Shown here in pieces: positions 11,142-27,521 of a stretch of DNA of 30,919 nt. Position 1 is the first letter of the stretch. The number at the start of each line of letters is the position of its first letter. Origin of the DNA: Patescibacteria group bacterium (lineage in GTDB: Bacteria > Patescibacteriota > WWE3 > UBA101185 > UBA10185). The notes under the pieces were generated by a model that was not told the origin of the DNA, did not search any database, and saw nothing but the letters and a program-made list of their open reading frames with translations. The translations under genes and the position numbers were made by a program. Where the stretch lies: NCBI GenBank assembly GCA_022710505.1, contig JAKLGS010000001.1, positions 1 through 30,919 of the forward strand, written 5' to 3'.

Positions 11142-11179
11142 TAAGGGCTAGTTGAATTTTTTTATTCATCCAGCCCTTA
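11142..11179. terminator. Hairpin after the deaminase remnant
   Basis: TAAGGGCT / AGCCCTTA outer stem and TGAAT / ATTCA inner stem. Confidence 0.6.
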
Positions 11180-11198
11180 TTATTCAGTTTTATTGGAT

Positions 11199-11390: not shown

Positions 11391-11411
11391 TTATTTCTCC
11401 TTCTTCAATTA

Positions 11412-12560
11412 TCAATTATTTAGATTATCCCATACATCGATAGCTTTATCTAGACTCGAGTAAAAATCTTGTCCTATAATATCTGAAACCCCATCTTTTT
11501 TTGCTTTTAACCATTCTTTGGTGTCTTTGAGGAAAAAAATGACTTCTTCTGCAGGATAGTTTAGATTATTCAAAGCCATTGCTATTCTTACTATTCTGCA
11601 TTTTATACATGACCCGCACTGAGATGGGTTTTGAAGTATAAAATTTGGTGTCTTTTCTAGCCACTTTTTTCTCAAGTTCTTTCTTGCAAAAGGAGGAGAG
11701 AAGCAATTTGAAATCGTTGGAACTGATCGTGGCCAATATTTTATCAAGTCAGCTAAACATTCGACATCGTCGGCATCTTCCCACTCGACTTTTATCGGAC
11801 TACCAATCAGTTCTTCGATTTTTTTGTTATAAAGTTTCCATGACGATTCGGTCTCAGTAAATTGATAATTTTGATCTTGTTTCCCCATGTTACCTTCAAT
11901 AACTATCCTTGAAGCACCAAATTCCAGTGCAATTGGAATTATCAAGGAGGTTATAAACATGTCTCTCGATCTCATAACTGACTTACCTGAAATTCTGCTA
12001 CCATTTTTCAGTTTAACAATTTTCAGTTGCGGAAAATCACGAAGCGTTTTTCTTTGTGCCAGAGTATCTTTTTCTTCTTGTGCGGATACGCTTCTATTTA
12101 TACCTGCAATATGAACGGCTAGAACGTTATCTATTCCCAAAGATTTGGTCATTCTCCATACGTTCCATAAAGAATCTTTACCTCCAGAGAATGCTACCAC
12201 GGCTTTTCTGTCAGTTAGTTTGTACTCTAGCAGATTTGGTGTGGTTTCTTGCTCAATATCAAAATACTTAATCTTTGGGATAGCTCTTTTATTGAATGCG
12301 TACATCGCTTGTACAATCTCAAATACCTCTGGAATCAGAAGAAAATTTATCCTAATAACATTTGGAAAAGAATTTGCGACAAGATGCATCAGACCGAAAT
12401 TCTTAAATAAGCTTCTAGAAAGAGTGTTATTAGGGTATTCAATGTAAGCAACATCAAGATTGTTACTGGGTTTTACAATACTTAATGATTGTGTTTCATC
12501 ATCGTCAACCATTCTCAACGAATACTCATTAGATAGTATCGTTACCTCTTTATTTTCCAT
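11412..12560 (-). CDS. QueC-like PP-loop ATPase with Zn-binding C-terminus and N-terminal extension
   Basis: AVVAFSGGKDS PP-loop, SRDMF (QueC RN-like), SNCF...CGSCIKCR; AGGAG SD. Confidence 0.75.
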   Translation of the reverse strand: MENKEVTILSNEYSLRMVDDDETQSLSIVKPSNNLDVAYIEYPNNTLSRSLFKNFGLMHLVANSFPNVIRINFLLIPEVFEIVQAMYAFNKRAIPKIKYFDIEQETTPNLLEYKLTDRKAVVAFSGGKDSLWNVWRMTKSLGIDNVLAVHIAGINRSVSAQEEKDTLAQRKTLRDFPQLKIVKLKNGSRISGKSVMRSRDMFITSLIIPIALEFGASRIVIEGNMGKQDQNYQFTETESSWKLYNKKIEELIGSPIKVEWEDADDVECLADLIKYWPRSVPTISNCFSPPFARKNLRKKWLEKTPNFILQNPSQCGSCIKCRIVRIAMALNNLNYPAEEVIFFLKDTKEWLKAKKDGVSDIIGQDFYSSLDKAIDVWDNLNN

Positions 12561-12592
12561 TTTCTCTCCTTTATATTTAATTTTTTTTATTA

Positions 12593-13117
12593 TTGTTCAC
12601 GATTTTACTTTTAAAGGGTTGTTATGTCAAAAGTAACAGAATTGAATATTTTCTAAACCACGAAGAGGGCACTTGCATAAAACCCTATAGTGTTGCCAAA
12701 AAGAACGAATTGGCGTACCTAGAAAGTTCCAAGTACGTAAGGGAGCTGTTACCTCTCGAATACGGCGAGACGGTGGACGGGGGCCAGGAATATTGGACTC
12801 CTGTAATTTCCGATCGGAGCGAGGGTCTTTTGGAAGATTTGCGTCTCACTCCTTTCGTTAGGCAGCTCAAAGAAACCTCTCCGTTCATCGAAATTGTAAT
12901 GATGGAACTCTCAGGAGAGGCGAACAACGAGGGTTCGTTTTCAATTGAGAGTAGTAAGCCTTTGCAGCTTCCTTCTCCAAACCTCCAGATTTTAGAGAAG
13001 GAGTTCGGTTGCGAAGTCTACATAGAGGGGAAAAAGTTAACTGTCTGCTTTAAAAATTTGGAAAGGGATTACCGAGAGGTGATTGCCTTCAAAGCAGGGG
13101 TTATCCTTATGTCATAA
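12593..13117 (+). CDS. Hypothetical protein; start uncertain
   Basis: 174-aa ORF with TTG start; weak similarity to 14455-15132. Confidence 0.6.
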   Translation: MFTILLLKGCYVKSNRIEYFLNHEEGTCIKPYSVAKKNELAYLESSKYVRELLPLEYGETVDGGQEYWTPVISDRSEGLLEDLRLTPFVRQLKETSPFIEIVMMELSGEANNEGSFSIESSKPLQLPSPNLQILEKEFGCEVYIEGKKLTVCFKNLERDYREVIAFKAGVILMS

Positions 13118-13130
13118 AATGCATGTTAAG

Positions 13131-13175
13131 ATGGGACCCAACACATATAAATTTTATGTAGCGGGTCCTTTTTTT
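13131..13175 (+). terminator. Conserved hairpin plus T-tract, copy 1
   Basis: GGACCC..ACATA / TATGT..GGGTCC then T7; 35/40 identical to 15152-15191. Confidence 0.75.
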
Positions 13176-13342
13176 GTTTTTCTGATAACATAATTACAAA
13201 ATATTTGTAATTTGATAATATTAGTTATGTATGCATAAAAGAATTTGCAATCTCGTGAATAGAATTAATTTTGGTAGGAGATTTGTGATAATATTTTTTC
13301 TACTTTTTTTCACTTACGCAATTATCTAATCACCGTAATAAC

Positions 13343-14332
13343 TTAATCAATCTCGAACTCAATCTTCTCACTTTTTGCACTCGTGCCGTACTTGTCGTAT
13401 GCTTTAGCATAAAATTCGTAATCACCGTCGTCACTTCTGAATAAATATATGTAGTTATCGTTGTAATTTATTGAGTCTCCCTTATAACAGACTTTGACTT
13501 CTTCTAATCCTTTTTTCATCCTTACGTCGTAAAGATATTTATCTCCAGCCATTATAAAAATGTATCCTTCAGAAAATCCGCAAGATGACTTTGTCGTATC
13601 AAATTTTTTGTAATGTCTGTAAGTGTATCCAATGTCATTGTCATCGTATTTATCCTCTAGATAGTCAGAAGCAATGTTTATCCCTCTATCACCTTCTCCA
13701 GGATCCCATCCCTCTGTATCTTTATCATAAAGTGCTCGGTATTGAACAGTTTTTTCTTTTTCCCCATTTATATAGAATTCTACATAAGATATTCCACCAA
13801 TATTATCCTCTGCGGTTAGCGATAGATTTATGGGGTCATCCTCCGAAAATGTTCTGTCTTTGTATCCCCAAGATGTTAGTTTTATTGACGGCTTATCATT
13901 ATTTTCAGGAATTGCTTTTTCTGGTTCAGATACCTTTTCTTCGATTATGGGAGTCTCTTTATTAACAGTTATATCCGGTTGATTTTTTACGGTTGTTTCA
14001 GTAGTACTTGGTTTGGTGGTTTCTGTGCTATTCGATTGTGAAAGGAGTGTACCGAAGGCATTTTGTGAATTTGATGCTTCATCTAAATTTTCTATAATCT
14101 CTTTATTTTTACCCATGTTTACTAATTTTTTTGTTTTATCGAAAATTAAAAATTTGTAGGTAAAAAATCCTAATGTTATAAAAAATACAAGTCCTAAGAA
14201 TAGTGATAGCCATTTGAAATTCGTGGCTTTACGGGGTTTTTCTGGTTCAACAGTGTTATTAGTATCAATGATGTCTGTCGTTTTGTTAGTAATATCGATA
14301 TTATCCATTTTATTTATTATACAACTTACCAA
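13343..14332 (-). CDS. Membrane-anchored extracellular protein with Ig-like domain
   Basis: TM, Thr/Glu-rich linker, LSLTAEDNIGGISYVEFYING ... YEFYAKAYDKYG. Confidence 0.7.
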   Translation of the reverse strand: MVSCIINKMDNIDITNKTTDIIDTNNTVEPEKPRKATNFKWLSLFLGLVFFITLGFFTYKFLIFDKTKKLVNMGKNKEIIENLDEASNSQNAFGTLLSQSNSTETTKPSTTETTVKNQPDITVNKETPIIEEKVSEPEKAIPENNDKPSIKLTSWGYKDRTFSEDDPINLSLTAEDNIGGISYVEFYINGEKEKTVQYRALYDKDTEGWDPGEGDRGINIASDYLEDKYDDNDIGYTYRHYKKFDTTKSSCGFSEGYIFIMAGDKYLYDVRMKKGLEEVKVCYKGDSINYNDNYIYLFRSDDGDYEFYAKAYDKYGTSAKSEKIEFEID

Positions 14333-14454
14333 CCGTAGTGGGTTGGTTGTACGGATTCACTAGTTGCAATAGAACCCATAGTGTGTTATTATTTTGCTAA
14401 ATACTTAATCACTCTTCAAAATAAAGAGTGTCCAAAGGATCACCAAGAGGAAAA

Positions 14455-15132
14455 ATGGAAAGAAACAAAGAAGATTTTGAAAATTTTTGTCAATTTGTCT
14501 GCGAATACAGGGAAGAGATGACCAAAATTCTGGTTCTACAGAACGGGGGAGTTGTTGTCACCGGAATAATTTCATGTGTCGAAAAACTAAAGCCTGCAGT
14601 AATTAAGGCTTTAGAAAAGGCGCGCAAAGAATATCTTATGGGCTATAGTTATCAAGGCAATAAGATTGCATTCTGGCGCACCGGTGAAGAGGGGACTTTT
14701 GATCCTTATACAGAGGAGGGTATTATGGATTTTAGAGATCCTCCGGACGAAGATTTTTTAGATGAGGTACAACGTGCCTTGTCGCAGTCCCAATTTATCG
14801 AGGTAATTGTGGACCACCTAGAGGGTTACAGTATCCCAGATAAACTTACCATAAAGGTGGGAAATACACCAGGAGAGCCCCCTTTCATAAAAAATAAGGA
14901 GGTTTGGATGGTGAGTGTATCTCCTAAGGGGGTAATTTATAATCTTGATACACCCTTTATAGGAGATCTGAGAGGAGATTTGAATAGTGCCTCTCTTAAG
15001 TTTCTAGAGTCTTACTCACCACCTTGGGTTGACTTTTTCGTCGATACCGTCGAAGTGAGCATACCGGAATGTCCCTCCGCGATGCTTTTCGAAATGGCGG
15101 GTAAAACTGCCAGGATATTCATGGGCTGTTAG
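14455..15132 (+). CDS. Hypothetical protein
   Basis: ATG 14455 after AGAGG; 225 aa. Confidence 0.7.
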   Translation: MERNKEDFENFCQFVCEYREEMTKILVLQNGGVVVTGIISCVEKLKPAVIKALEKARKEYLMGYSYQGNKIAFWRTGEEGTFDPYTEEGIMDFRDPPDEDFLDEVQRALSQSQFIEVIVDHLEGYSIPDKLTIKVGNTPGEPPFIKNKEVWMVSVSPKGVIYNLDTPFIGDLRGDLNSASLKFLESYSPPWVDFFVDTVEVSIPECPSAMLFEMAGKTARIFMGC

Positions 15133-15151
15133 TAGAAAATTTTTTTCAAAA

Positions 15152-15198
15152 ATGGGACCCAATACATATTTATTTTATGTAAAGGGTCCTTATTTTTT
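15152..15198 (+). terminator. Conserved hairpin plus T-tract, copy 2
   Basis: Near-identical to 13131-13170. Confidence 0.7.
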
Positions 15199-15397
15199 TA
15201 ATTTAAAAATAAAATTACTAAATATTTTTATAAAAATTTAGAAGATGCATATTATTTAAGGTAAAAAAAGGTTATTTTTAAGATTACTGACGAGATTGGA
15301 TAGTTAATAAGAAAGGATCAGTTCATACCTTATTTCCAACCAGAATTTTATTACCAAGAAATATTGAAAAAGCTAGAACATAACTTATACTAATTTT

Positions 15398-16426
15398 ATG
15401 CAAGGTGGCTTTAATATTTTAGAAGTTACAGGTGATTACACACAGGTTGGTAGTGCCATAGGTAAGAAATTTAAAGATACCGTCCAGAAAAGAATTCAAC
15501 TTAGGCGCGAAAAAATTCCAAACTACTCATCATATTTAGATCGATGCCAAGAATATTTCTAAATTACGCAAAAAAAAATTTCCCCACTTGGTTGATGAAT
15601 TAGTCGCAATAGCCACTTGTGCCGAGGTACCCGTAATGGAGTACTTTTTTCACAACAATCGAGATTTGTATGATTTTTTTTGTAACGAAAAAGGAAAAAA
15701 AATACAAACATTTCATCTGCAGGATTATCCGATCACTGTACTGTTGCTGTTTCTTTTAATGAGGATGGTGCAATTATAGGGTACAATGAGGATTGGCTTT
15801 TGTCAGCAGTTGCCGATTATTATTTATTAAAAGCAGAAATTAACGGTATTAAATTTATAACTTTAGCCGCAAAGACACTGCTCGCAGGAGATTCCGCGGG
15901 CATGAATACTTTTGGTCTATGTCAATGTATCAATGAATTGCATTCGGAATCGAAGGTAGGTGTCCCAAAAAATTTCGTGGCACGGGCTATTTTGGAAAGT
16001 AAATCGTTAAATGCCGCTGAGGAGCTTATTAGAAATACCCCCAAGGCCAGTGGTTTTAACCACGTGTTAGTTCAGGGCCACGAGGTAAGAAATGTAGAAA
16101 TTGCTGGAGCAAAAATAGGGGTTTCAAGTTATATAAATCAGCCTTTTGTACACACTAATCATTATCTTTCACCTGCTTTACAAAAATTCGAAAATTTCAA
16201 AACTATTAATTCTGTTGAGAGGTATGAAAGGGCTTCACATCTTACAAATATGGGTATGACTGTAAAAGATATGATATTGCTTCTACAAGATCACCGGAAC
16301 GAAGAAAATCCCATATGTAGTCATGATTTTACACTAGGAGCTCTTGTTTTTGATCTGCCCAAAAAGGAAGCATATGTTTGCTACGGTACTCCCTGTAAAG
16401 GTATTTTTAATAAATATTATCTGTAG
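15398..16426 (+). pseudogene. Disrupted C45-family (isopenicillin N acyltransferase-like Ntn) hydrolase
   Basis: ATG 15398; in-frame TAA 15560; middle segment FPHLVDELVAIA is in another frame; DHCT...YNEDW and HTNHY are in the 15800 frame; frame changes fall near A9 (15570-15578) and A8 (15695-15702). Confidence 0.8.
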
Positions 16427-16587
16427 TAGTTACTATGAAAAACTAACTGTCTTGTGTAAGGTTCCGTAGCGAATTTCAGCTAAATACCTAGGCTGTAGTT
16501 ATTAGTAGAACTGTTTAAGCAATAATTAATTGACGATATTTATATAAATATTCAAAAAAATGCATCACTCTGATAAACTTTCAAGAA

Positions 16588-16926
16588 GTGCGTTCAAAAA
16601 AACACTATCTCCAAAACAAAGAAATTTCCAGAGATATCATTTTAGAGGGTCTTAAATCCTTTTGTGAGTTTTATGGTGTTAGATATTGTAAGCTAGCTAT
16701 AAGAAATCAAAAAACGAAATGGGGAAGTTGTTCCAAATCCGGTAATTTGAACTTTAACTACATAGTTGCTTTCTTGCCTAAAGAGCAAAGAGACTACATT
16801 ATTGCTCACGAAGTATGCCACTTAACTGAGTTTAATCATTCAAAAAGATTTTGGGATGCGGTCGGAAAAACAATTCCAAATTACAGAGAAATTAGAAAAG
16901 AAATTAAATCTATTAGAATTTACTAA
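16588..16926 (+). CDS. YgjP/DUF45-like (M48/SprT-type) metal-dependent hydrolase, short form
   Basis: RNQKTKWGSCS..GNLNFN, AHEVCH (HExxH), NHSKRFW. Confidence 0.88.
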   Translation: MRSKKHYLQNKEISRDIILEGLKSFCEFYGVRYCKLAIRNQKTKWGSCSKSGNLNFNYIVAFLPKEQRDYIIAHEVCHLTEFNHSKRFWDAVGKTIPNYREIRKEIKSIRIY

Positions 16927-17099
16927 AATTTTCTAAAAAGGAGTTCGTTTATTATCTTTAGTAATAAAAAATCCCTCTCAGTTTTATTGGGTGGGGAGGG
17001 GGGAAATTAAATTTATTTTGTGTTTATGTAATTCTTGGGGTCGCTTACAGGTTAGTAATAGAACTGTATGTGCTATAAAAAAATTTTTAGTAAAAAAGA

Positions 17100-17146
17100 A
17101 AACCGCCTTGGGGGATTGTGTTTATCACACTCCCTTACAGCGGTTT
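17100..17146. terminator. Terminator-like hairpin downstream of the 91-aa ORF
   Basis: AAACCGC / GCGGTTT outer stem with an inner GC-rich stem; upstream A-rich run gives a U-rich tail on the minus strand. Confidence 0.55.
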
Positions 17147-17169
17147 GTTAAGTACTAGATCGAAAAGGT

Positions 17170-17445
17170 TTAGTCGCAAAGACGAGCTGTTACCCCGATC
17201 ACATAACATGAGTCTTTGCCAGTTTTTCCATCGTATCCTGGAATTGGTGCTTCCGTGATTTGTTTAAATGCTTCGGAGACCCTGGTGGTCATTTTGGATC
17301 TACTTACTGGGTTCACCCCGTCGTAATTTTTCTTCCACCAATTGTGAAAGCTTCTCCAAGCTTTCTTGATTTCTGGTGGGTACAACTTATGAACGTCATC
17401 CGTTATCGGAATTCCATATGGTGGTACACCCATCCCACTGCACAT
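17170..17445 (-). CDS. Hypothetical 91-aa protein
   Basis: Strong SD AAGGAGG, consensus promoter and terminator. Confidence 0.75.
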   Translation of the reverse strand: MCSGMGVPPYGIPITDDVHKLYPPEIKKAWRSFHNWWKKNYDGVNPVSRSKMTTRVSEAFKQITEAPIPGYDGKTGKDSCYVIGVTARLCD

Positions 17446-17481
17446 CGTAAACCTCCTTTTGGTTTTAGTTGATTGGCTGGA

Positions 17482-17510
17482 ATTATAGCTTAACGTGCCT
17501 TTTGTGTCAA
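17482..17510 (-). promoter_or_regulatory. Perfect sigma70 consensus promoter
   Basis: Minus strand TTGACA-N17-TATAAT. Confidence 0.85.
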
Positions 17511-17524
17511 ATACTACAGGATAC

Positions 17525-17546
17525 TTGGGGTGGTTGACGGGTCTCG
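17525..17546 (-). repeat. att core copy (tRNA-His 3' end duplicate)
   Basis: TTGGGGTGGTTGACGGGTCTCG identical to 24961-24982. Confidence 0.95.
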
Positions 17547-17659
17547 GTCACGCGTCTTAACATCTTGTATATCGCTTCGCTCACACAATCTGTAAAGCTC
17601 GCGACCCCATCTCCTTCGCTCATTTCATTCGCTCAGTCCGATATTCTCGCCCCGTCAAC
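17533..17659 (-). other. Branched hairpin module fused to the att copy
   Basis: GTTGACGGG / CCCGTCAAC closing stem; GGUCGCG/CGUGACC stem; three TGAGCGAA motifs on the minus strand. Confidence 0.7.
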
Positions 17660-17873
17660 AAGAAAGTCCGTTAACCACACAAGGTGATTATCCGACTTCC
17701 TGGGGTCGCTAATGGATGCTAACTTGAACCACTTATTCAGAGATTTCAAGGTTCTAACTGAGTTAATTTCATATATCTAACTACTTATTTTGGGTTACAT
17801 TGGAGAGACAGAAAAGTATTCCGCGTATATTATTTACTCTTTTTAGATAATGCCATTAATTTTTAACTGATGT

Positions 17874-18248
17874 TTATTTTATTGGGTATGTGTTAATACA
17901 GTTAGTCATAAATTTAGTTTTAAATGCTGCTGTAGTTGGATCGTTTGATTCGTCATACACTCCGTCGTAACTGAACGTGATTGCTTGTTGTGTATTACAT
18001 ATCCCCGTGTAAGGGCAACCTTTAATCATTTTACTTATGATATCGAGCATTTCTTTTTGCTTTTTATCATACTTTGATAGGCAGTATCTAGTTGCTTCTT
18101 CTTTTTTATTTTCCTTTTCTTTAAGTAATAACTCTTGCTTTTTTTCCTCTGCTTTTCTTGGGGAGTAAATTACCAGGTAGAAGAAGAAAGAACTAGCTAA
18201 CATGAGAGCAGATATTGAAAGTATGACTATTAAAAACTTATCCTTCAT
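17874..18248 (-). CDS. Hypothetical membrane-anchored cargo protein
   Basis: N-terminal TM, charged coil, four Cys. Confidence 0.7.
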   Translation of the reverse strand: MKDKFLIVILSISALMLASSFFFYLVIYSPRKAEEKKQELLLKEKENKKEEATRYCLSKYDKKQKEMLDIISKMIKGCPYTGICNTQQAITFSYDGVYDESNDPTTAAFKTKFMTNCINTYPIK

Positions 18249-18426
18249 TTGTTGAACAAATTATACCTAATATAGTTAGTTAAAACCAATTAAAAAGTCT
18301 ACCTCCTACAAAATTTCTTATAATTTAGCAGGGTTAAGTTTTTATACATACCTTTTATCTCTTAACAACAACAAATAATCAGGGGTTAAATTGGCGAAAA
18401 ATTTTTATAAATGCTATGTATATGTT

Positions 18427-18876
18427 ATGGAAAATGAATACAACATCACACTTGAAGATATAGAACATATTATTGGATCAAAGGAAAAGACATTATTTTA
18501 CCTTACTTGGTTGAAACATAATAGAAACGGAACGAGGGCATATATGGAATTACACCCGGAAGTCAAAGAAAGTAGTGCGAGGGTATTGGCTTCAAACTTA
18601 TTAAGTACCATAGATATTAACCTTATTGCCGATTGTTACGGATTAAATCATCAGAAGTATTACGAGATGTTACAGGCTGGATTAGAAGCAGAAAAGAGGG
18701 ACCAATATACAGGTGAGATGTATCCGGACCATCAAACGAGATTAAAATACCTCGATAAGTTGGGAAAGTTGCTTCGAATTGAAAGGGAAAAAGAGCAACA
18801 AAAAGATGAAGACTTAAAGACAGAAGCATTTAAAACAATTGAACTTATGAGAGCAGAGTATAACTTGGAAGAGTAA
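18427..18876 (+). CDS. Small terminase subunit-like HTH protein
   Basis: FYLTWLKHNRNGTRAYMELHP...SARVLASNLLS and PDHQTRLKYLDKLGKL resemble TerS patterns; ATG 18427 preferred over TTG 18391. Confidence 0.6.
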   Translation: MENEYNITLEDIEHIIGSKEKTLFYLTWLKHNRNGTRAYMELHPEVKESSARVLASNLLSTIDINLIADCYGLNHQKYYEMLQAGLEAEKRDQYTGEMYPDHQTRLKYLDKLGKLLRIEREKEQQKDEDLKTEAFKTIELMRAEYNLEE

Positions 18877-19116
18877 CTATGAGATGGAATTTGGTAGATA
18901 TTTGGCACTTTTTAACTCTCATTTGCTTTTCAAAAACTCTTTTTATAGTAGTTTAATAAGTAACGAAAAAAACCCGAAATAGCAACCGATTTATGTTGTA
19001 ACCACGCGGGTTGCAGAAAAAACCTAAGAGTGTTATATATAAAATAATGAAACAATAACAGGCACAATACGGCTTGTTGACAATAATAATCGTTCATTGT
19101 GGGAACGTGTTCGCTA

Positions 19117-19151
19117 ACTTCTACCCGACCACAACGGGTAGAGGTTTTTTT
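19117..19151 (+). terminator. Intrinsic terminator upstream of the replication genes
   Basis: 11-bp stem (one G-U) followed by a T-run. Confidence 0.7.
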
Positions 19152-19183
19152 GTATTTTAACAAATTAAAAAGGAGAAAGTATT

Positions 19184-19408
19184 ATGCAAGGTAGAAAAGT
19201 ATCTGAATATGTAATGCAGAAATACATTACGGAGTACAAAGATTTTATAGGAAGAAAAAGAGCTGATTTTATACACAAAGCCTATGGAAACGACATATGT
19301 AAGTTTGCAGAATTAGGGTATGACACGAATAGCTTTTTTAACGACCTGTTACAAGGAAAGGAATTAAAATATGACGTGGAAAACACCAATACCACCAGAC
19401 TTAAATAA
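19184..19408 (+). CDS. Hypothetical 74-aa protein (possible regulator or directionality factor)
   Basis: SD AAGGAG; first gene of the replication module. Confidence 0.6.
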   Translation: MQGRKVSEYVMQKYITEYKDFIGRKRADFIHKAYGNDICKFAELGYDTNSFFNDLLQGKELKYDVENTNTTRLK

Positions 19409-19949
19409 GATATTTGGAAGTGATTACCTATCACAACTTATATTTGAAAGGTTACTCATAAGATCCCGGAACGAAAGCGGGGTTGCTACTAACTATTGGT
19501 ACACACCGGTAACTCTTAATAAGGGACAAGCCGTATGCGGTCTGTCAGAGTTGGGTAGATTTTTTGCGGTGGATAGAAAAACAATCAAAAGACACCTTGA
19601 AAAACTACAAAATGAGTACAAGGTAGTGGACTACCTACCAACCCGAAAAGGTACGATAGCAACAATAAAAAACTATGGTGGGTTAATAAAAATGGACTGC
19701 TGTGTGGACTACCCTAAAGATGAGAAAAGGGACTACCCACCACCGATAGAAAAGGTTGTTGTTAGTACAACGGCGGGGAACTCGTTACAAAAAAGGGACT
19801 ACCCTAAAAGTAACAAATGGGACACTAACAAGAATATAAATACAAATAATAGTAAATCTTTTAAGGGTAAGAAAAGTTATTCATTTATTCCGTATGTTTT
19901 AGGTGATTTGACACCGGAACAACAGAGAAGAAAGGTAGAGTTTATATGA
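19371..19949 (+). CDS. Phage-type replication initiator (wHTH)
   Basis: LNKGQAVCGLSELGRFFAVDRKTIKRHLEKL and GTIATIKNY; TNKNIN-type tail; internal iterons; overlaps the helicase start. Confidence 0.75.
   Translation: MTWKTPIPPDLNKIFGSDYLSQLIFERLLIRSRNESGVATNYWYTPVTLNKGQAVCGLSELGRFFAVDRKTIKRHLEKLQNEYKVVDYLPTRKGTIATIKNYGGLIKMDCCVDYPKDEKRDYPPPIEKVVVSTTAGNSLQKRDYPKSNKWDTNKNINTNNSKSFKGKKSYSFIPYVLGDLTPEQQRRKVEFI
19626..19890 (+). repeat. Probable origin: four GGACTACC(C) iterons plus an AT-rich tract
   Basis: GGACTACC at 19628, 19706, 19730 and 19796; AT-rich from about 19826. Confidence 0.65.
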
Positions 19950-20887
19950 AACTATCAAAGCAAGAGATACAAGAAAGGAACGAAGTTATTGATAGAGTAT
20001 TTAGTTTAGATGGAAATCAGTCATTTACCGGATACCCAAAAATAGATGACATATTGGGGGTTGTAGAGCCTGGCGACACAATACTTTTAGGCGGGGAAAG
20101 TGGGGTTGGAAAAAGCCTTGTAGCGTCAAACATAGCGGTAAACGTAGCCAAACAAGGTAAAAAAGTTTTATACCTTGATCTTGAAAATGGCGAAAGGACA
20201 GGCATTAAAAGGTTGTTATCAATATGGTCTGGCGTAGAGTTTAAGAAGTGGAACAACAAAGAGCATATTGAAAATGCCTACGGAATAAATCACGAGTTAT
20301 CAGAAAAGATCGAGTATTGGGATCATTTCTCACTTGAAAACCTATCAGGGTTTAGTGAAAATTCCTGGAAGACTATCATCAAATACGTCATAAGCAGAAG
20401 TGCAAACAAAGACACAAAGCCACAGTTGGTAATCATAGATCCGTTGCAAGATTTGGAAAGTGAGACCGAAAGCACAAAGACATATAACGAACAGGGGCAT
20501 ATCATTAAAGCATTGAAGAACCTTGCACAAAAGTTGAGTATTAATATCCTCATATGTCACCACCTACGAAAGCCTGGAACAACGAACAGTAGATATGTTG
20601 CCGACGTAGATGATAAGGAAGCAAGGTTGTATAGGATACCCGAAAAAGATGATTTTGAGGGATCTTCAAAGATTATAAATAAATCAATGCAAGTCTTATC
20701 AGTTGTCAGAGCCTACGAGGGTGGAACAAAAGAAAAGAGATCAAAGACAAGGGTTGAGGTATTGAAAAATAGGAATAGTCTAACAGGCGTTGGTTATCTT
20801 TATTTGAACGAAGATAACTTACGAATTGAAAATGATCCTGTGTATGTTACTGAGTATGCCGAGTTGTTAGACGGAAGATTGTTTTAG
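19946..20887 (+). CDS. DnaB-like (SF4) helicase of the element
   Basis: GGESGVGKS Walker A, LYLDLEN, VIIDPLQ, HHLRK, EGSSKI, KNR. Confidence 0.88.
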   Translation: MKLSKQEIQERNEVIDRVFSLDGNQSFTGYPKIDDILGVVEPGDTILLGGESGVGKSLVASNIAVNVAKQGKKVLYLDLENGERTGIKRLLSIWSGVEFKKWNNKEHIENAYGINHELSEKIEYWDHFSLENLSGFSENSWKTIIKYVISRSANKDTKPQLVIIDPLQDLESETESTKTYNEQGHIIKALKNLAQKLSINILICHHLRKPGTTNSRYVADVDDKEARLYRIPEKDDFEGSSKIINKSMQVLSVVRAYEGGTKEKRSKTRVEVLKNRNSLTGVGYLYLNEDNLRIENDPVYVTEYAELLDGRLF

Positions 20888-20901
20888 TTTGAGTTGTACC
20901 G

Positions 20902-20958
20902 TACCCCCGAAAATACCTTACTATTATATTTTAGGTAAAAGGGGGTATTGGTTTTTAT
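20902..20958 (+). terminator. Hairpin after the helicase
   Basis: TACCCCC / GGGGGTA and TACCT / AGGTA stems, T-rich tail. Confidence 0.5.
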
Positions 20959-21163
20959 TACAACGTATAGGGGGGTTATAAAGTAATGGGAATTTTGTCT
21001 AAAATCGGTTTTAAGGCACGTTATTATTAAAGTTAAGTTAAGATACCTTTGGGCGTGATGCCGGGTAGAATAGGGCGTTGGTTACTCATTATTTGAGAAG
21101 TTTTAAGATTAACAAACATTAACAATTTAAAGTTAAGGATTATACCATTCGGATATTAAATAA

Positions 21164-21196
21164 AGATTAAATTTAGATTAAATGTAGATTAAATGT
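21164..21196 (+). repeat. Three tandem 11-bp repeats abutting a -10 box
   Basis: AGATTAAATTT, AGATTAAATGT, AGATTAAATGT then TATAAT at 21196-21201. Confidence 0.75.
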
Positions 21197-22122
21197 ATAA
21201 TGGGTTTATGTTCAAGATTATAAGGAACACATTTTTTGTTCTTTGGAATATATGCATCCTTATATTTTCAACAACAATAATTTTTGAAGGATATATTAAA
21301 GATGAATTTAGTGTACTGATGGGGACGGTATTAGTAATAACAATACTTTTTGGGGGTTTGTCTTTTTTACTTTTTCTGATTTTCTACGAAATAAGTCTTA
21401 AGGGGTTTGATAAAAAATTATATTGGAAATCTAAATTATATTTAAAGGAGTTAGGATATTTACTAATCCCGGCATCGTTACTTTTACTTGGTTTTTACGG
21501 TCTTATCAAAAAACCTTTTATAAAGGAAACAAAACAAGAAGGAGTGGTATCTTTACGTCAAGTTGAAGAAATAAATCACGATAAATCAATAGATACCAAA
21601 ACAACTTCTGAAACTCAGCCAGTTATTAACACACCGACCCCAATATTAGAAGCTGACCCAATGGTTAACTGTGGAATACATGAAAACTGTGGTGGCGGTA
21701 CAAAACTTATGAGGGAAAGCGATTGTGAAAAAACTATATGCTGCGAAATAGGTGGTAATTGGTATTTTTATGATTCAGCTACCAAATGTGATGAAGACCA
21801 AACAGATTATTGGGAAGAATATTATGAAGATAAGTACAAAGACGATGACGAAGACGATGATTATACAATTGATATTCCGGAGTTACCGCCATTAGAACCT
21901 CTACCCCCCATAGATCTAACAATTCCTGATTATTTGATAGATGTTCCTGAGGAGAATAATGAAGAAGAGATAAAGAAGTGTGAGGAGAGGGCAAGAGAGG
22001 ATACAAAGTCTCAGATTGACGGGTGTTATATAAAATATGGGGGAACAAGCGCTGCAGATATGTGTGCCAGAGGGGTTCAGCAACTAGGTGCTGATGCTAT
22101 AAAGGCTTGTAGAGGGTTATAG
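21193..22122 (+). CDS. Membrane protein with Cys-rich and acidic extracellular regions (cargo); ATG 21208 possible
   Basis: Three N-terminal TMs, PTP linker, CGIHENC...CEKTICCEIGGNW, Asp/Glu run. Confidence 0.75.
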   Translation: MYNGFMFKIIRNTFFVLWNICILIFSTTIIFEGYIKDEFSVLMGTVLVITILFGGLSFLLFLIFYEISLKGFDKKLYWKSKLYLKELGYLLIPASLLLLGFYGLIKKPFIKETKQEGVVSLRQVEEINHDKSIDTKTTSETQPVINTPTPILEADPMVNCGIHENCGGGTKLMRESDCEKTICCEIGGNWYFYDSATKCDEDQTDYWEEYYEDKYKDDDEDDDYTIDIPELPPLEPLPPIDLTIPDYLIDVPEENNEEEIKKCEERAREDTKSQIDGCYIKYGGTSAADMCARGVQQLGADAIKACRGL

Positions 22123-22152
22123 AGTTATAAGAAAAATAGAGGAAAAACCATT

Positions 22153-22419
22153 TTGATTAATAATAAAGTACACAAGAGATTAATTACCATATTTTTATTA
22201 ATTTTATTACCCTCATTACTTACTGCTTGCACTAGCTATACACCTAATACATATGAGGAGAGTTCTGGTTACAAGGAGTATGGCTGTACCCAAGATTGCT
22301 CGGGACACAATGCTGGCTGGGAATGGGCACGTGAAAAAGGTATTACTGATCCGTCAGACTGCGGGGGTAAATCAGAATCATTCATTGAAGGTTGTAGGTC
22401 GTATGCTGAGGATTATTAG
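22153..22419 (+). CDS. Small Cys-rich lipoprotein (cargo)
   Basis: Lipobox LLTAC; CTQDCSGHNAGWEWA...SFIEGC. Confidence 0.75.
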   Translation: MINNKVHKRLITIFLLILLPSLLTACTSYTPNTYEESSGYKEYGCTQDCSGHNAGWEWAREKGITDPSDCGGKSESFIEGCRSYAEDY

Positions 22420-22446
22420 CTATAAGATTTAGTATAATGCAACTGT

Positions 22447-23187
22447 ATGAGGTCTTCCCAATCGAGCAATAATTTTAATAAATATATTAATATATTTTTT
22501 GACAAAGATATATTTAAGTTTATTACTTCAAAAGATAAAGCTTACAAATCTATTAATAAAAGAGATAAGAAAGAGGTAGGTGCATTTAAAGATAAAGCTA
22601 GACAAGACTTAAACACCCTTTTAAAAAAGAAAGGTATCCCATTATCTTGGCAAGAGCCAATATGCTCCACTATCTGGAACCCCGCCTGTATAGTCCCTAT
22701 CTATGATGGAATTCATATCGAGGTAGGTGATGAGGTAGTAACAATAGAGAAGAACATGGGTACTGATAAGAAGTATCTATTAAAAACAGAAAAGAAGAAT
22801 AGCGAAAAGAAATATAACATCGTTGTATCTAGAAACGTGACAAAAAAAGATTTCATTGACTTTATTAATACCCACTGGGAGTTTTTATCTGGCCTACAAA
22901 AAACTCTTAATCTTCCTAAAGACCCGCCTATTAGAACAAGCAAGACCCTCCACGCCATAGATGTAATTGGTATGAGGGACTTTAAAAGAAAAAGTTTTGA
23001 AGAGATTGCCACAGAAATGTTCGATTATGTTTCGAATACAGAAAATATTAACCCAACAGAGAAAAAGAGATTACTTAAAACCTTTTCATCAGGAGATAAC
23101 GTTAGAAAAAATGTCTACGAAAGATTCAAAACCGGGTTCTTAAATGACTCAATATTTGTACCAAAAAATAACCTTAAGAAAAAATAA
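22447..23187 (+). CDS. Hypothetical protein, possible C-terminal HTH regulator
   Basis: RKSFEEIATEM...DNVRKNVYERFK; TATAAT 8 nt before the ATG. Confidence 0.6.
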   Translation: MRSSQSSNNFNKYINIFFDKDIFKFITSKDKAYKSINKRDKKEVGAFKDKARQDLNTLLKKKGIPLSWQEPICSTIWNPACIVPIYDGIHIEVGDEVVTIEKNMGTDKKYLLKTEKKNSEKKYNIVVSRNVTKKDFIDFINTHWEFLSGLQKTLNLPKDPPIRTSKTLHAIDVIGMRDFKRKSFEEIATEMFDYVSNTENINPTEKKRLLKTFSSGDNVRKNVYERFKTGFLNDSIFVPKNNLKKK

Positions 23188-23383
23188 TTAGAGTCTAATA
23201 TCTGTTTTAAAGGATATTGGAATCTATGAATAGATCTTCGAGGTGTTTAAAAAAACCCATTACTATAAATAAAAGCGATGTATACGATGTTAATATTGCT
23301 ATCGATATTCTTTCAGAAATTGCACTTTTAAAATTAATGAAATTTCAAACGGCTCAGATAACAAATACAAACAAAAAATGATG

Positions 23384-23487
23384 TATAATTATCTTGTTGC
23401 CAACATAATAGGATTGTTCTTTTTAACGACCGTCTTAGGACAACTAAGAGCAATCTTTTGTTGGCAACACCTAGGGCGGTCTTTATT
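23384..23487 (+). promoter_or_regulatory. -10 box and structured leader of the recombinase gene
   Basis: TATAAT 23384-23389; 12-bp stem 23428-23439 / 23470-23481; 11-bp inverted pair 23395-23405 / 23459-23469. Confidence 0.6.
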
Positions 23488-23490
23488 ATT

Positions 23491-25119
23491 ATGAGCAAAT
23501 ATGCAATAGGGTACATTCGTGTATCCTCAGAAGAACAAATAACTAACTATTCTTTGAGTAACCAGGAAGATAAATGTAAAGATTTTTGTAAATCTAATGG
23601 ATATGAGTTACTGAGTATATTTCGTGAGGAAGGTAAATCTGCTACCACTTTAAATAGACCTGAACTAATAAATCTTCTTGAATATTGTAGAAAAAACAAG
23701 GGAAAGGTTGATGCGTGTGTGATTTATAAGATAGATAGATTATCTCGTAATACATATGATTTTCTAGAGATAAAAAGAAGATTAGCATCGTGTGGTGTTG
23801 CGGTTGTCTCCATCACAGAACCTACTGATGATTCTCCAACCGGTGAGTTTATGGAAACCATGATGGCAGCACAAGCAAGGTTTGATAACGCATTAAAAAG
23901 TGAAAGAACTAAAGAAGGTATGACAAAGAGATTAGAGGCGGGGTTACCTACTAACCCCCTTCCAGTTGGTTATAAATATCAACTTGGTGAAGACGGGAAA
24001 AACCACCCTGTTAGAGATGATCCGAAGTTTTCGCTTTTACAGCAGGCTGGATATGACTATATGACGGGGATTTATAACAAGGTTCAGATTGCTGATATTT
24101 TAAATAAGAGAGGTTTTACTACTAAGAAAAACAAGTCTGTTTGTTCACAGTTTATATCAGACTTCTTTGCAAATAAGTTCTACAAAGGTGTTATTTATTC
24201 TAAAGTTAGAAATCAGGACTATATAGGTAGTTATGAGAAGATGTTTACAGAGGAGGAGTGGTACAAAATACAGCAGATATCTAAAGGAAATCATTTATTA
24301 GCACAGCCGAGAAAAAGAAATAATCCCGATTTTCCTCTTAGACATTTTACTGTGTGTGGTAAGTGTGGGAAACCAATATCAGGTAATTGGTCAAAGGGGA
24401 GAAATAATAGATATGCTTATTATAGGTGTTTAGACCACGCCCCCTCCATTCCGGTCGAGACATTTGAATGTGAGTTCGTAGAGTTACTTGAGTCTATTAA
24501 GCCGTCTAAGGAGACTGTAGAGCGCTTCACAGAGGTATTAAAAGCTAAGTATAACGATAAGTATAGGGAACTCACAAAAGACGTATCTACTTTAAATAGG
24601 CAGTTAGAGGAGCTAAAGAATGAACAGAGAATCCTTGTTAAGAAGAATCTAAAAGGTATTTATGACGATGAGCTTTTTATGGAAAGGAATGAGGAGATAA
24701 AAGACGAGATAGTTATAAAACAGACTCGGATAAGTGAAAGCTCCATAGACAAGATTAATATTGATACTGTTTGCACATTTGCGAATCATTTTATCAACAA
24801 TATTTCACAGACATGGCGAACCGCTGATTTAGATACTAAACAAAGGCTTCAGGAGATAATATTTCCAGAGGGGGTGATTTATGACTTTCCTGGATTTCGA
24901 ACCGCCACTTTATCTTGTCTTTTCAATGTTTTAAGGGAGTCTAGCGAGTCAAATGAGCATTTGGGGTGGTTGACGGGTCTCGAACCCGCGACCTCCTCTT
25001 CCACAGAGAGGCGCTCTAACCAACTGAGCTACAACCACCGCAATTTAAAAATTCTTATCACAGAATTCTCCTGTATTTTACCAATAAATCAAGTTTTGTT
25101 GTACTACGAATTTTCCTAA
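23491..25119 (+). CDS. Large serine recombinase (integrase); ATG 23491 preferred over TTG 23458
   Basis: GYIRVSS catalytic motif, DRLSRN, recombinase domain, CGKCG...YYRC zinc ribbon, coiled coil; last 45 aa are antisense tRNA and flank. Confidence 0.93.
   Translation: MSKYAIGYIRVSSEEQITNYSLSNQEDKCKDFCKSNGYELLSIFREEGKSATTLNRPELINLLEYCRKNKGKVDACVIYKIDRLSRNTYDFLEIKRRLASCGVAVVSITEPTDDSPTGEFMETMMAAQARFDNALKSERTKEGMTKRLEAGLPTNPLPVGYKYQLGEDGKNHPVRDDPKFSLLQQAGYDYMTGIYNKVQIADILNKRGFTTKKNKSVCSQFISDFFANKFYKGVIYSKVRNQDYIGSYEKMFTEEEWYKIQQISKGNHLLAQPRKRNNPDFPLRHFTVCGKCGKPISGNWSKGRNNRYAYYRCLDHAPSIPVETFECEFVELLESIKPSKETVERFTEVLKAKYNDKYRELTKDVSTLNRQLEELKNEQRILVKKNLKGIYDDELFMERNEEIKDEIVIKQTRISESSIDKINIDTVCTFANHFINNISQTWRTADLDTKQRLQEIIFPEGVIYDFPGFRTATLSCLFNVLRESSESNEHLGWLTGLEPATSSSTERRSNQLSYNHRNLKILITEFSCILPINQVLLYYEFS
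24962..25039 (-). tRNA. tRNA-His: tRNA-His (GTG) with encoded G-1 and CCA
   Basis: Acceptor GTGGTTG/CAACCAC, anticodon arm CCTCT-CTGTGGA-AGAGG, T-arm GCGGG-TTCGAGA-CCCGT, G-1:C73. Confidence 0.97.
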
Positions 25120-25163
25120 ACTTCATCCTTTTAAAAACTTAAACTCTCTGATAATATAGTCCC

Positions 25164-25817
25164 ATGGAAATTACGTACATAGGGCACTCTTGTTTTAAAA
25201 TAAAGGATAAAACCATATCTTTGGTTATAGATCCTTATAATCCAAAAATCGGATACAAACTTCCTAAACTTTCATCTGATGTAGTTTTAGTTACTCACGA
25301 CCACTTCGATCACAATTACATAGAAGGTGTTAGTGACTACAGACTTTTGGTTGATGGTCCAGGAGAATATGAAGTCGGAGGATGTTTCATATATGGAAAA
25401 TCAGTAGATCATGATGAAAAAAATGGTGAAGAAAGAGGTAAAGTTACAATGTATCTAATTACCATCGATGATTTTAACATTTTACATTTAGGCGATTTGG
25501 GAAGAGAGTTGACCCAAGAAGAAATGGAGAGAATTCCTAATGTTGATGTTTTAATGATACCTGTAGGAAATAAATACACTATTGATGAAAAGGCCGCTGT
25601 TAAAGTAATATCGGCTTTGGAGCCTTCTTATGTTATACCAATGCATTATAAAACCGATGATCTTACTGGTGTAGAAGGTTTAAGTGGGGTAGAGGAGTTT
25701 CTTGAGGAGATGGGGGTTGGGGACGACGTTAAAAAAGATTTAGATAAATTGGTTTTAAATTCGAAAACAGATCTTGATGGAGATACTCAAGTAGTGGTTT
25801 TAAAGCCTGCTCACTAA
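25164..25817 (+). CDS. MBL-fold metallo-hydrolase (beta-lactamase B_3-like)
   Basis: GHSCF, IDPY, THDHFDH, HLGD, IPMHY. Confidence 0.92.
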   Translation: MEITYIGHSCFKIKDKTISLVIDPYNPKIGYKLPKLSSDVVLVTHDHFDHNYIEGVSDYRLLVDGPGEYEVGGCFIYGKSVDHDEKNGEERGKVTMYLITIDDFNILHLGDLGRELTQEEMERIPNVDVLMIPVGNKYTIDEKAAVKVISALEPSYVIPMHYKTDDLTGVEGLSGVEEFLEEMGVGDDVKKDLDKLVLNSKTDLDGDTQVVVLKPAH

Positions 25818-27273: not shown

Positions 27274-27360
27274 GCCGTGGTGGCGGAATGGCATACGCGG
27301 TGGTCTCAAAAACCACTGGGATCTAATCCCGTGTGGGTTCGACTCCCACCCACGGCACCA
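27274..27360 (+). tRNA. tRNA-Leu: tRNA-Leu (CAA)
   Basis: GCCGTGG/CCACGGC acceptor, GTGGT-CTCAAAA-ACCAC anticodon arm, long variable arm, CCA. Confidence 0.97.
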
Positions 27361-27420
27361 TTATTAAAGCTAATCGATTACTAATCTTTTAGATTTAAGA
27401 TTTATCCAGATAAAGTTATA

Positions 27421-27521
27421 GTGGGAGGAGAATGCCACAGGCGCGACGGCGCCGAGGCGGGGTCGACGGTTCTGCTAGCAAGCAGAAACCGGTAATCGGT
27501 CTCCCACCCACGGCACCATTA
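27421..27521 (+). repeat. Orphan att-like duplicate of the tRNA-Leu 3' end with GC-rich branched hairpin
   Basis: 27501-27521 is identical to 27343-27363 (21 bp); GTGGGAG / CTCCCAC closing stem. Confidence 0.85.

What the first reader, a model, noticed from the sequence alone, without database searches (positions are those of the whole stretch)
24961..25119. att site inside the integrase gene: C-terminus switches on excision
Seen: the ORF crosses the att core in frame. Integrated, it ends ...HLGWLTGL + 45 aa (EPATSSSTERR...QVLLYYEFS) read antisense through tRNA-His. Joining the core to 17547 gives ...HLGWLTGL-GHAS-stop (TAA 17558-17560). Established: some mycobacteriophages use att-dependent C-terminal truncation of the repressor as a genetic switch. 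Inference: the hydrophobic tail may act as a degron or directionality control; no directionality factor was recognised.
Basis: partly seen in the sequence, partly recalled or inferred. Interest (0 to 1): 0.8.

Follow-up and report, generated by a model that had tools for sequence, protein, structure and literature searches.

The report
Serine integrase gene split by integration
A 7.3-kb mobile element sits at the end of the only tRNA-His gene of a Patescibacteria genome, and because its recombination site lies inside its own serine-integrase gene, insertion cuts off a conserved 24-residue tail and replaces it with 50 meaningless residues read off the tRNA.

Summary
Partly confirmed, with one correction.

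**What holds.** The integrase (23491-25119) is a large serine recombinase. Its frame runs antisense through tRNA-His.

**What does not.** The exact 22-nt repeat (17525-17546 / 24961-24982) is real but is not this element's att core. It flanks a separate tRNA-associated mini-repeat of about 160 bp.

**The true core.** It is TGGGGT (17701-17706 / 24962-24967), at the CCA end of the tRNA and in codons 491-493 of int. The element is 7,261 bp.

**The two isoforms.** The excised form is 516 aa and ends in a conserved amphipathic helix, SLMDANLNHLFRDFKVLTELISYI, not GHAS. The integrated form is 542 aa and carries an unconserved, low-confidence tail.

**Evidence.**
- The same tail follows a 6-11-nt tRNA-end core, in frame, in 11 loci where both junctions could be checked. 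It appears in five more where only the left end could be read.
- It is contiguous with the integrase in about 1 in 6 database relatives.
- The GAACC motif sits 5 bp further out in P' than in B'.
- A related genome has the mini-repeat and the tRNA without the element.

**Context.** In 61 of 62 related loci the int stop codon lies inside or beyond a tRNA gene. Precedents are Dehalococcoides DsiB (serine) and Mx8 IntP/IntX (tyrosine). This scan has reported the same layout on other genomes. What the swap does to enzyme activity is untested.

The parts
23491..25119 (+). Integrase ORF as it stands in the integrated state (542 aa plus stop): a large serine recombinase.
   Evidence: Pfam Resolvase 8e-38, Recombinase 5e-07, Zn_ribbon_recom 3e-06. 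Translation. AlphaFold is confident up to about residue 479; residues 480-542 have pLDDT below 50.
24962..24967 (+). attR core TGGGGT. It is the antisense of ACCCCA: the last two acceptor bases, the discriminator and CCA of tRNA-His. It spans codons 491-493 of int.
   Evidence: Similarity of int relatives L133/L134 to the window stops at 24967. The junction alignment A2 shows G005 equals the left half of attL plus the right half of attR, joined at TGGGGT.
17701..17706 (+). attL core TGGGGT, the left boundary of the 7,261-bp element.
   Evidence: It is followed in frame by the conserved tail. This is the only significant tail-HMM hit in six frames of the whole genome, E 3.8e-06. L141 has the same layout, with GAACCACTTA at the same offset.
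17706..17780 (+). Detached last 24 codons of int (S493 to I516) plus the TAA stop. They encode the conserved amphipathic tail SLMDANLNHLFRDFKVLTELISYI and also serve as the P' half-site.
   Evidence: Tail HMM hits and alignment A4 of 21 tails. Pooled pN/pS is 0.48 beyond +27 nt.
17726..17730 (+). GAACC motif in P', 25 nt from the start of the core.
   Evidence: It lies 5 bp further out than the same motif in B'. This holds in 8 of 10 loci by the scripted motif match, and by eye in a ninth.
24982..24986 (+). GAACC motif in B' (antisense of the tRNA T-loop), 20 nt from the start of the core.
24962..25038 (-). tRNA-His(GTG), the only tRNA-His gene found in the assembly and the integration target. 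It stays intact.
   Evidence: ARAGORN; Rfam tRNA 67.6 bits; one tRNA-His among 66 tRNAs in the assembly.
24967..25116 (+). Replacement tail of the integrated form (W493 to S542), read antisense through the tRNA and 78 nt of spacer.
   Evidence: In relatives the stop falls 17 to 203 nt past the tRNA end. pLDDT is 26-37.
17707..24961 (.). Body of the integrative element. It encodes a TerS-like HTH protein, a DnaB_C/AAA_25 helicase-like ATPase, membrane proteins and int. No virion genes were recognised.
   Evidence: ORFs; Pfam. Logan contigs in two other samples skip from 17661 to 24960.
17525..17546 (+). It is the outer repeat of a separate mini-element.
17547..17700 (-). Body of the tRNA-associated mini-repeat. 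It is not part of the integrase element and supplies the B arm of the element's attB.
   Evidence: BLAST finds at least 8 further matches in the genome, five of them beside a tRNA gene. It is present next to tRNA-His in G005 without the element. The RNA fold has z = -4.35.

Best explanation
**Shown from sequence.** A 7,261-bp integrative element was inserted by its own large serine recombinase at the CCA end of tRNA-His. The crossover lies within the 6-bp TGGGGT, which sits in codons 491-493 of the integrase gene, so integration splits the gene.
- Residues 1-492 stay at the right end of the element.
- The last 24 codons end up 7.3 kb away at the left end. They encode a conserved amphipathic helix and overlap the P' DNA half-site.
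- The integrated copy instead reads 50 unconserved codons antisense through the tRNA.
- The full-length 516-aa enzyme can be encoded only when the two ends are rejoined in the circular form.
- This layout is the rule in a large clade of tRNA-targeting serine integrases.

**Inferred, not shown.** The complete enzyme is the form that carries out integration. The tail-less integrated-state enzyme is less active, less stable or differently regulated. Integration would then turn down its own recombinase and stabilise the inserted state, as reported for Mx8 IntP/IntX and as proposed for Dehalococcoides DsiB.
For: **Enzyme class.** Pfam domains; predicted coiled-coil helices at residues 340-417.

**Core and boundaries.**
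- G005 has the mini-repeat fused to tRNA-His exactly at TGGGGT.
- Contigs from two other samples skip from 17661 to 24960.
- Relatives L133/L134 lose similarity to the window at 24967 and continue with CGC, as at 17707.
- L141 has TGGGGT 9.7 kb upstream of its tRNA-His, followed by GAACCACTTA at the same offset as in the window.
- GAAC(C/T) lies exactly 5 bp further from the core in P' than in B' in 8 of 10 loci by script, and in a ninth by eye. Serine-integrase sites are known to show this 5-bp register shift (noted in bioRxiv 10.1101/2025.05.02.651858).

**Tail.**
- An HMM finds it in frame after a 6-11-nt core identical to the tRNA 3' end in 11 loci where both junctions could be checked. 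It finds it after the presumed core in five more where attR or the tRNA was off the contig.
- The window's copy is the only significant hit in six frames of the whole genome.
- The tail is contiguous with int in P0101, P0107, P0120, P0090 and P0085, and in about 22-25 of 133 full-length representatives.
- Pooled pN/pS is 0.48, with pS 0.74, beyond the likely DNA footprint.

**Family rule.**
- In 61 of 62 loci the stop lies inside or beyond the tRNA.
- The spacing from the IFP motif to the tRNA end is a constant 34-35 codons.
Against: - No circular junction was seen in the four sets of public contigs or in IMG/VR, so excision of this copy is not demonstrated.
- The best-conserved tail residues (W/L-N) are encoded by TGGAAC, which overlaps the P' GAACC motif. 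Part of the conservation is therefore at the DNA level.
- One close relative (L133) has int joined to a short tail without the motif.
- In P0012, P0019 and P0022 the integrated form ends two codons into the core, and these elements are common. This shows nothing either way about activity.
- No structure of a full-length form could be predicted.
- The functional step rests on analogy alone.
Confidence: 0.6

Rival explanations
1. The 22-bp repeat is the att core, the element is 7,436 bp, the excised integrase ends GHAS-stop, and the long hydrophobic tail of the integrated form acts as a degron or a directionality control.
For: - The repeat is exact and 22 nt long.
- The join gives an immediate stop.
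- A metagenome contig (L001) carries a related int, 57% identical, directly followed by the same 22 nt and GTCACGCG. Its product P0013 ends GHAS.
- Dehalococcoides DsiB islands have a 20-bp repeat running from the T-loop to the 3' end (PMC3146451).
Against: - The 17547-17700 segment is an independent repeat found at other tRNAs without any integrase. It also lies at tRNA-His in G005.
- The GHAS form lacks the conserved tail, while the tail sits in frame right after TGGGGT at 17701.
- The 5-bp motif shift fits the 17701 junction.
- The same trap, a longer repeat lying 85 nt to about 1 kb left of the true junction, recurs in L114, L078 and L120.
- L001 is explained if the mini-repeat inserted into the T-loop after that other element had integrated.
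- The integrated tail is unconserved.
Confidence: 0.06
2. A neutral by-product. The P and P' half-sites simply overlap the 3' end of int. The apparent tail conservation reflects the DNA site that the integrase must bind, and both isoforms work alike.
For: - W/L-N is encoded by T(G/T)GAAC and coincides with the P' GAACC motif. The first tail codons mimic the tRNA acceptor and T-stem.
- The tail varies in length and ending.
- AlphaFold shows that the confident fold ends about 12 residues before the core.
Against: - The hydrophobic periodicity continues to about 60-70 nt past the core. That is beyond what I take to be a usual serine-integrase half-site of about 25-30 bp.
- pN/pS is 0.48, with saturated synonymous sites, in codons 10-24.
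- The frame is never closed before the core in 61 of 62 loci, and the spacing is fixed.
- The detached tail stays open and in frame in all 16 loci aligned in A4.
Confidence: 0.22
3. A built-in directionality switch. The tail restrains or redirects the coiled-coil interactions, so that the full-length enzyme only integrates. The tail-less integrated-state enzyme would then be the form able to excise, with little or no separate directionality factor.
For: - The isoform is strictly coupled to the state of the DNA.
- No directionality factor was recognised in the 7.3-kb element.
- In phiC31, acidic residues at the extreme C-terminus contact the directionality factor (bioRxiv 10.1101/2025.05.02.651858). 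This shows that the end of a serine integrase can take part in directional control.
Against: - There is no direct evidence.
- Directionality factors are small and diverse, and several small ORFs in the element have no assignment.
- Integrated tails range from none to dozens of residues, so any effect must come from loss of the helix rather than from the new tail.
Confidence: 0.12

Closest known systems
Dehalococcoides ssrA-specific genomic islands, serine recombinase DsiB (McMurdie et al. 2011, PMC3146451)
   Same: - It is a large serine recombinase of about 540 aa at the edge of an island, next to the 3' end of a tRNA-like gene.
- The authors state that dsiB always overlaps attL at its 3' end and has its stop codon only outside the island.
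- They suggest it may be fully functional only on the circular element.
   Different: [quoted passage not shown] Here the core is 6 bp at the CCA end of a tRNA.
- The authors found the overlapping part divergent and described no conserved tail at the far end.
- DsiB is accompanied by a second small serine recombinase, DsiA.
- Homology between the window's integrase and DsiB was not tested here.
Myxophage Mx8 integrase IntP/IntX (Tojo 1996 and Magrini 1999, as summarised in PMC6070905)
   Same: attP lies inside the integrase coding sequence. Integration creates a gene with a new 3' end, and the altered integrated-state enzyme behaves differently. This was interpreted as regulation of excision.
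   Different: Mx8 Int is a tyrosine recombinase with a different chemistry and site architecture. The functional difference was shown experimentally there and is only inferred here.
SSV1-type integrases of archaeal viruses and plasmids
   Same: The integrase gene contains attP and is partitioned by integration into a tRNA gene. An intact gene exists only on the free circle.
   Different: These are tyrosine recombinases in archaea. The gene is cut into two large parts rather than losing a 24-residue tail.
Canonical large serine integrases (phiC31, Bxb1, A118/LI, SPbeta SprA)
   Same: - Resolvase, recombinase and zinc-ribbon domains with a coiled-coil insert.
- Short att sites with minimal identity.
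- A 5-bp register shift of the outer motif between attP and attB.
   Different: - To my knowledge attP lies outside the int ORF and the targets are mostly protein-coding genes.
- The largest survey I read (PMC10083194) never mentions tRNA in its main text.
- This clade has an extra C-terminal helical domain and tail with no solved homologue by sequence.
Mycobacteriophage integration-dependent immunity (BPs, Brujita; PMC4557955, PMC3694055)
   Same: Integration changes the C-terminus of a phage protein because attP lies inside its gene.
   Different: The gene there is the repressor, and the change removes a degradation tag. The integrase is a tyrosine recombinase.

Membership tests
Large serine recombinase (serine integrase) | N-terminal resolvase catalytic domain with the catalytic serine | tested here: met
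   PF00239 at 8e-38 over residues 5-151. The motif YIRVSSEEQ is present, and R10, S12 and Q16 are invariant in alignment A1.
Large serine recombinase (serine integrase) | Recombinase domain and zinc-ribbon domain with an inserted coiled coil | tested here: met
   PF07508 and PF13408 both score above their gathering cut-offs. The AlphaFold model has long helices at 340-387 and 393-417. PDB sequence matches to A118 and SprA-type integrases cover this region.
Large serine recombinase (serine integrase) | Short att sites in which the outer (zinc-ribbon) motif lies 5 bp further from the centre in attP than in attB | tested here: met
   GAAC(C/T) lies at +25 in P' against +20 in B' in the window. 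The same 5-bp shift is seen in 8 of 10 loci by script and in a ninth by eye. Only the P'/B' sides were compared.
Large serine recombinase (serine integrase) | Catalyses attP x attB recombination through a 2-bp staggered cut | not testable with these tools
   This needs a recombination assay. The identity between the sites is only 6 bp, which is compatible.
Integrases with attP inside their own gene (Mx8 IntP/IntX, SSV1 type, DsiB) | The att core lies within the integrase ORF | tested here: met
   The core occupies codons 491-493. In 61 of 62 related loci the stop lies inside or beyond the tRNA.
Integrases with attP inside their own gene (Mx8 IntP/IntX, SSV1 type, DsiB) | Integrated and free forms encode different C-termini | tested here: met
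   542 aa against 516 aa. Natural full-length forms exist in databases.
Integrases with attP inside their own gene (Mx8 IntP/IntX, SSV1 type, DsiB) | The two forms differ in activity | not testable with these tools
   Indirect only: the free-form tail is conserved and under purifying selection.
Mx8 / SSV1 type specifically | Tyrosine recombinase catalytic fold | tested here: not met
   The enzyme is a serine recombinase, and Pfam gave no Phage_integrase hit. It works in a similar way but is not a member.
Mycobacteriophage integration-dependent immunity | attP inside the repressor gene, and integration removes an ssrA-like degradation tag | tested here: not met
   The gene is the integrase. The window's free-form tail ends ISYI, not LAA. 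Two relatives, P0101 and P0090, do end in LAA.

The most novel reading that the evidence does not exclude
The detachable C-terminal helix is a built-in directionality or feedback device for a serine integrase. The enzyme would 'know' whether its element is free or inserted because the DNA state rewrites its own gene, so integration and excision are controlled with little or no separate directionality factor.
Probability: 0.12. Interest if true: 0.8.

Novelty: new variant of a known kind. Interest (0 to 1): 0.55.

Why it matters
Serine integrases are prized genome-engineering tools because they are strictly one-way, and how that direction is set is still an active question.

A large, mostly uncultured clade appears to tie the enzyme's own C-terminus to the integration state. 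The profile search gave 1,828 cluster representatives at E <= 1e-30. These enzymes target the conserved CCA end of tRNA genes with a core of only 6-11 bp.

This matters in three ways:
- It gives a directly testable case of self-regulation by gene splitting in a serine recombinase.
- It gives a simple rule for predicting att sites in this clade.
- It warns annotators that the obvious long repeat next to a tRNA may belong to a different, older insertion. Integrase ORFs in such genomes are routinely mis-called, with tRNA-antisense tails.

Tried and rejected
- **Longest-repeat assignment of left ends.** It gave repeats of 13-26 nt and led me to conclude that excised-form tails were unconserved. 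This was wrong. At least three of these repeats (L078, L114, L120) lie 85 nt to about 1 kb left of the true junction. The tail HMM corrected it.
- **Search for an empty site with the window's left flank in 41 relatives.** The flank is not syntenic. G005's left flank matches window 7260-8772 instead.
- **Pattern TGGGGT-N19-GAACCAC in 134 genomes of the class.** There were three matches against four for the reversed control, and only the window's own looked real.
- **Predicted attP junction in IMG/VR.** No match.
- **Contigs of four public runs.** No joint showing a circular form. Contigs cannot show absence.
- **Metagenome scan with the integrase.** It yielded only two close relatives, both integrated.
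- **Rfam on 17000-25400.** Only the tRNA was found.
- **ESM Atlas on the C-terminal 111 residues of a full-length relative.** Nothing telling.
- **An inverted repeat GAGCAT / ATGCTA around the core.** I considered it as a site centre and dropped it, because its centre falls outside the identity block.

Full report
**1.

- The window holds an exact 22-nt direct repeat at 17525-17546 and 24961-24982, 27 of 30 nt when extended.
- The right copy is the 3' end of tRNA-His(GTG), 24962-25038 on the minus strand (Rfam tRNA).
- The ORF from ATG 23491 to the stop at 25117-25119 encodes 542 aa. It has Resolvase, Recombinase and zinc-ribbon domains, so it is a large serine recombinase.
- The ORF crosses the repeat in frame and continues antisense through the whole tRNA and 78 nt beyond.
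- Joining 24982 to 17547 does give ...GLGHAS-stop.

**2. Why the 22-nt repeat is not this element's att core**

- The 154 bp to the right of the left copy (17547-17700) is not unique to the element. BLAST finds at least eight further matches in this 847-kb assembly and more in sister genomes.
- Five of those matches lie just downstream of a tRNA gene (Arg, Leu, Tyr, Pro). In most, the copy is flanked by 21-22 nt of that tRNA's own 3' end.
- A more diverged copy sits at tRNA-Leu(CAA) in this same window, as a 21-nt repeat at 27343 and 27501.
- In a same-genus genome (G005, right flank 91% identical) the module lies next to tRNA-His with no integrase element. Its right end...CCGACTTTC, runs straight into TGGGGTGGTTGACGG of the tRNA.
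- In the window the same right end, ...CCGACTTCC, is followed by TGGGGT (17701-17706) and then by unrelated sequence.
- Alignment A2 shows that G005 equals the left half of the window's 17701 junction plus the right half of the 24962 junction.
- Logan contigs from two other digester samples skip from 17661 to 24960.

The integrase element is therefore 7,261 bp. It is bounded by TGGGGT, and it entered a site that already carried the mini-repeat.

**3. Independent support from relatives**

- L133/L134 (int 68% identical) lose similarity to the window exactly at 24967. They continue with CGC, as at 17707.
- L141 (int 49% identical, integrated at tRNA-His) has TGGGGT 9.7 kb upstream. It is followed by ...CTGAACCACTTA at the same offset as TTGAACCACTTA in the window.
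- In 8 of 10 loci with both junctions assigned, the motif GAAC(C/T) lies exactly 5 bp further from the core in P' than in B'. A ninth locus (L120) shows the same by eye. The motif is the antisense of the T-loop on the tRNA side. In the window it is at 17726-17730 (+25) and 24982-24986 (+20).
- Serine-integrase sites are known to show this 5-bp register shift between attP and attB. The phiC31 structure preprint 10.1101/2025.05.02.651858 refers to it.
- Contig L001, whose protein P0013 ends GHAS, carries a different integrase (57% identical). It lies next to a copy of this very mini-repeat that is 98.8% identical over 81 nt. That fits the mini-repeat having entered the T-loop after that other element had integrated.

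**4. The real excised isoform**

- Joining 24967 to 17707 gives a 516-aa protein ending HLG-SLMDANLNHLFRDFKVLTELISYI, with its stop at 17778-17780.
- This tail is conserved. A small HMM finds it in frame directly after a core identical to the first 6-11 nt of the local tRNA's 3' end. This holds in 11 loci where both junctions could be checked: the window, L141, L114, L117, L120, L078, L099, L116, L097, L103 and L110.
- The HMM also finds it after the presumed core in L048, L138, L112, L074, L095 and L096. In those loci attR or the tRNA was off the contig or not matched.
- In the six-frame translation of the whole genome, the window's copy is the only significant hit (E 3.8e-06; the next best is 0.55).
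- The tail is contiguous with the integrase in database proteins P0101, P0107, P0120, P0090 and P0085.
- The profile search found 1,828 cluster representatives at E <= 1e-30. Of the best 133 full-length ones, about 22-25 carry the tail. The rest stop aligning at the core.

My first pass had concluded that tails were unconserved.

**5. DNA constraint or protein constraint?**

Both appear to act.
- The best-conserved residues (W/L-N) are encoded by T(G/T)GAAC, which is the P' GAACC motif. The first tail codons mimic the tRNA acceptor and T-stem.
- The hydrophobic i, i+3/4 pattern runs on to about 70 nt past the core.
- Codons 10-24 show pooled pN/pS of 0.48, with synonymous sites near saturation at pS 0.74.
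- The detached segment is open and in frame in every locus aligned in A4.

**6. Family-wide picture**

- I collected 80 genome loci with integrases 25-50% identical to the window's. They come from Patescibacteria, Acidobacteriota, Verrucomicrobiota, Melainabacteria and others.
- In 62 of them an antisense tRNA gene abuts the 3' end of int: His, Glu, Lys, Ala, Leu, Gly, Arg, Ser, Pro or Met.
- In 61 of those 62 the stop codon lies 17-203 nt past the tRNA's 3' end.
- The distance from the conserved IFP motif to the tRNA end is a constant 34-35 codons.
- Integrated tails vary freely. P0012, P0019 and P0022 end two codons into the core, because their tRNA-His reads TGA or TAG in that frame.
- AlphaFold models the window's protein confidently to about residue 479. 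It gives pLDDT 26-37 for residues 480-542.

**7. Mechanism**

Shown: the gene is split by integration, and a full-length enzyme can be encoded only by the rejoined circle.

Inferred: the full-length form is the integrating enzyme, and the tail-less form is weaker or differently controlled, so that integration limits its own recombinase.

Alternatives are a neutral overlap of coding and site DNA, or a true directionality switch. None of these can be decided without assays.

**8. Known relatives of the idea**

- McMurdie et al. 2011 (PMC3146451) wrote that the Dehalococcoides serine recombinase gene dsiB always overlaps attL at its 3' end and has its stop only outside the island. They suggested it may be fully functional only on the circle. 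They saw no conserved far-end tail, and their repeat is 20 bp within the tmRNA gene.
- Mx8 IntP/IntX (PMC6070905) is the experimentally studied tyrosine-recombinase analogue.
- The large survey of serine recombinases by Durrant et al. (PMC10083194) does not mention tRNA in its main text.
- I found no paper describing this clade.
- This scan has reported the same layout on at least eight other genomes. Those notes prompted me to re-test tail conservation, which I then did independently.

**9. Verdict**

This is a new variant of a known kind, attP inside the integrase gene, here in a serine recombinase clade that targets tRNA CCA ends and carries a conserved detachable tail. Interest 0.55.

Noticed in passing
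window 17525-17700 and 27343-27521; own genome contigs C68, C40, C71, C4, C80, C2: A family of modules of about 140-165 bp lies just downstream of tRNA genes. Most copies are flanked by a 21-22-nt direct repeat of their tRNA's own 3' end, from the T-loop to CCA. In the copies examined, an internal arm pairs with 6-10 nt of that same 3' end. The module next to tRNA-His folds strongly on the tRNA strand (z = -4.35) and has no Rfam match. How the copies come to match each tRNA is unexplained. They could be remnants or miniature forms of elements that cross over in the T-loop, as DsiB islands do.
   Followed up: partly
own genome contig C40, about 2190-12090: Two copies of the mini-repeat for tRNA-Leu(TAG) lie about 9.6 kb apart. 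The DNA between them is flanked by TGGTGGGC, which looks like another insertion at a CCA-end core. The whole-genome search found no second integrase of this family.
   Followed up: no
window 17036-17044: A third occurrence of TGGGGTCGC, the core plus the first three P' bases, lies 490 bp left of the 22-nt repeat. What follows reads SLTG-stop and is not tail-like. It may be an old junction remnant or chance.
   Followed up: no
window 8773-17524: The left flank of tRNA-His in sister genome G005 is syntenic with window 7260-8772. About 8.7 kb of the window, including a dCMP-deaminase-like gene among others, is therefore extra or rearranged relative to that genome. It could be further islands at this tRNA, or a rearrangement.
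   Followed up: no
L054, L062, L068, L069, L073 and L082, about 1.6-1.7 kb upstream of the tRNA end: A small conserved ORF lies just upstream of int in many distant relatives. Its motif is ...SWLDEFER..F.GKTL.ELL. It is a candidate accessory or directionality factor. No counterpart was recognised in the window's element.
   Followed up: no
L136-L139, for example L136 4480-4930: In the P0022 elements, int is followed by a tRNA-His-like 3' fragment. A GIY-YIG ORF then lies on the other strand, before the tRNA-His that ARAGORN calls. This could be a nested insertion or an intron-like arrangement at the target tRNA.
   Followed up: no
L212 8000-8085: About 60 nt downstream of the full-length int of P0101 lies a second, orphan copy of the tail motif (...WNQIVAELREWEKIKQAF). 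It suggests stacked P' arms left by earlier elements.
   Followed up: no
database proteins P0101 and P0090: Two natural full-length integrases end in LAA, resembling an ssrA-type degradation signal. The window's tail does not.
   Followed up: no
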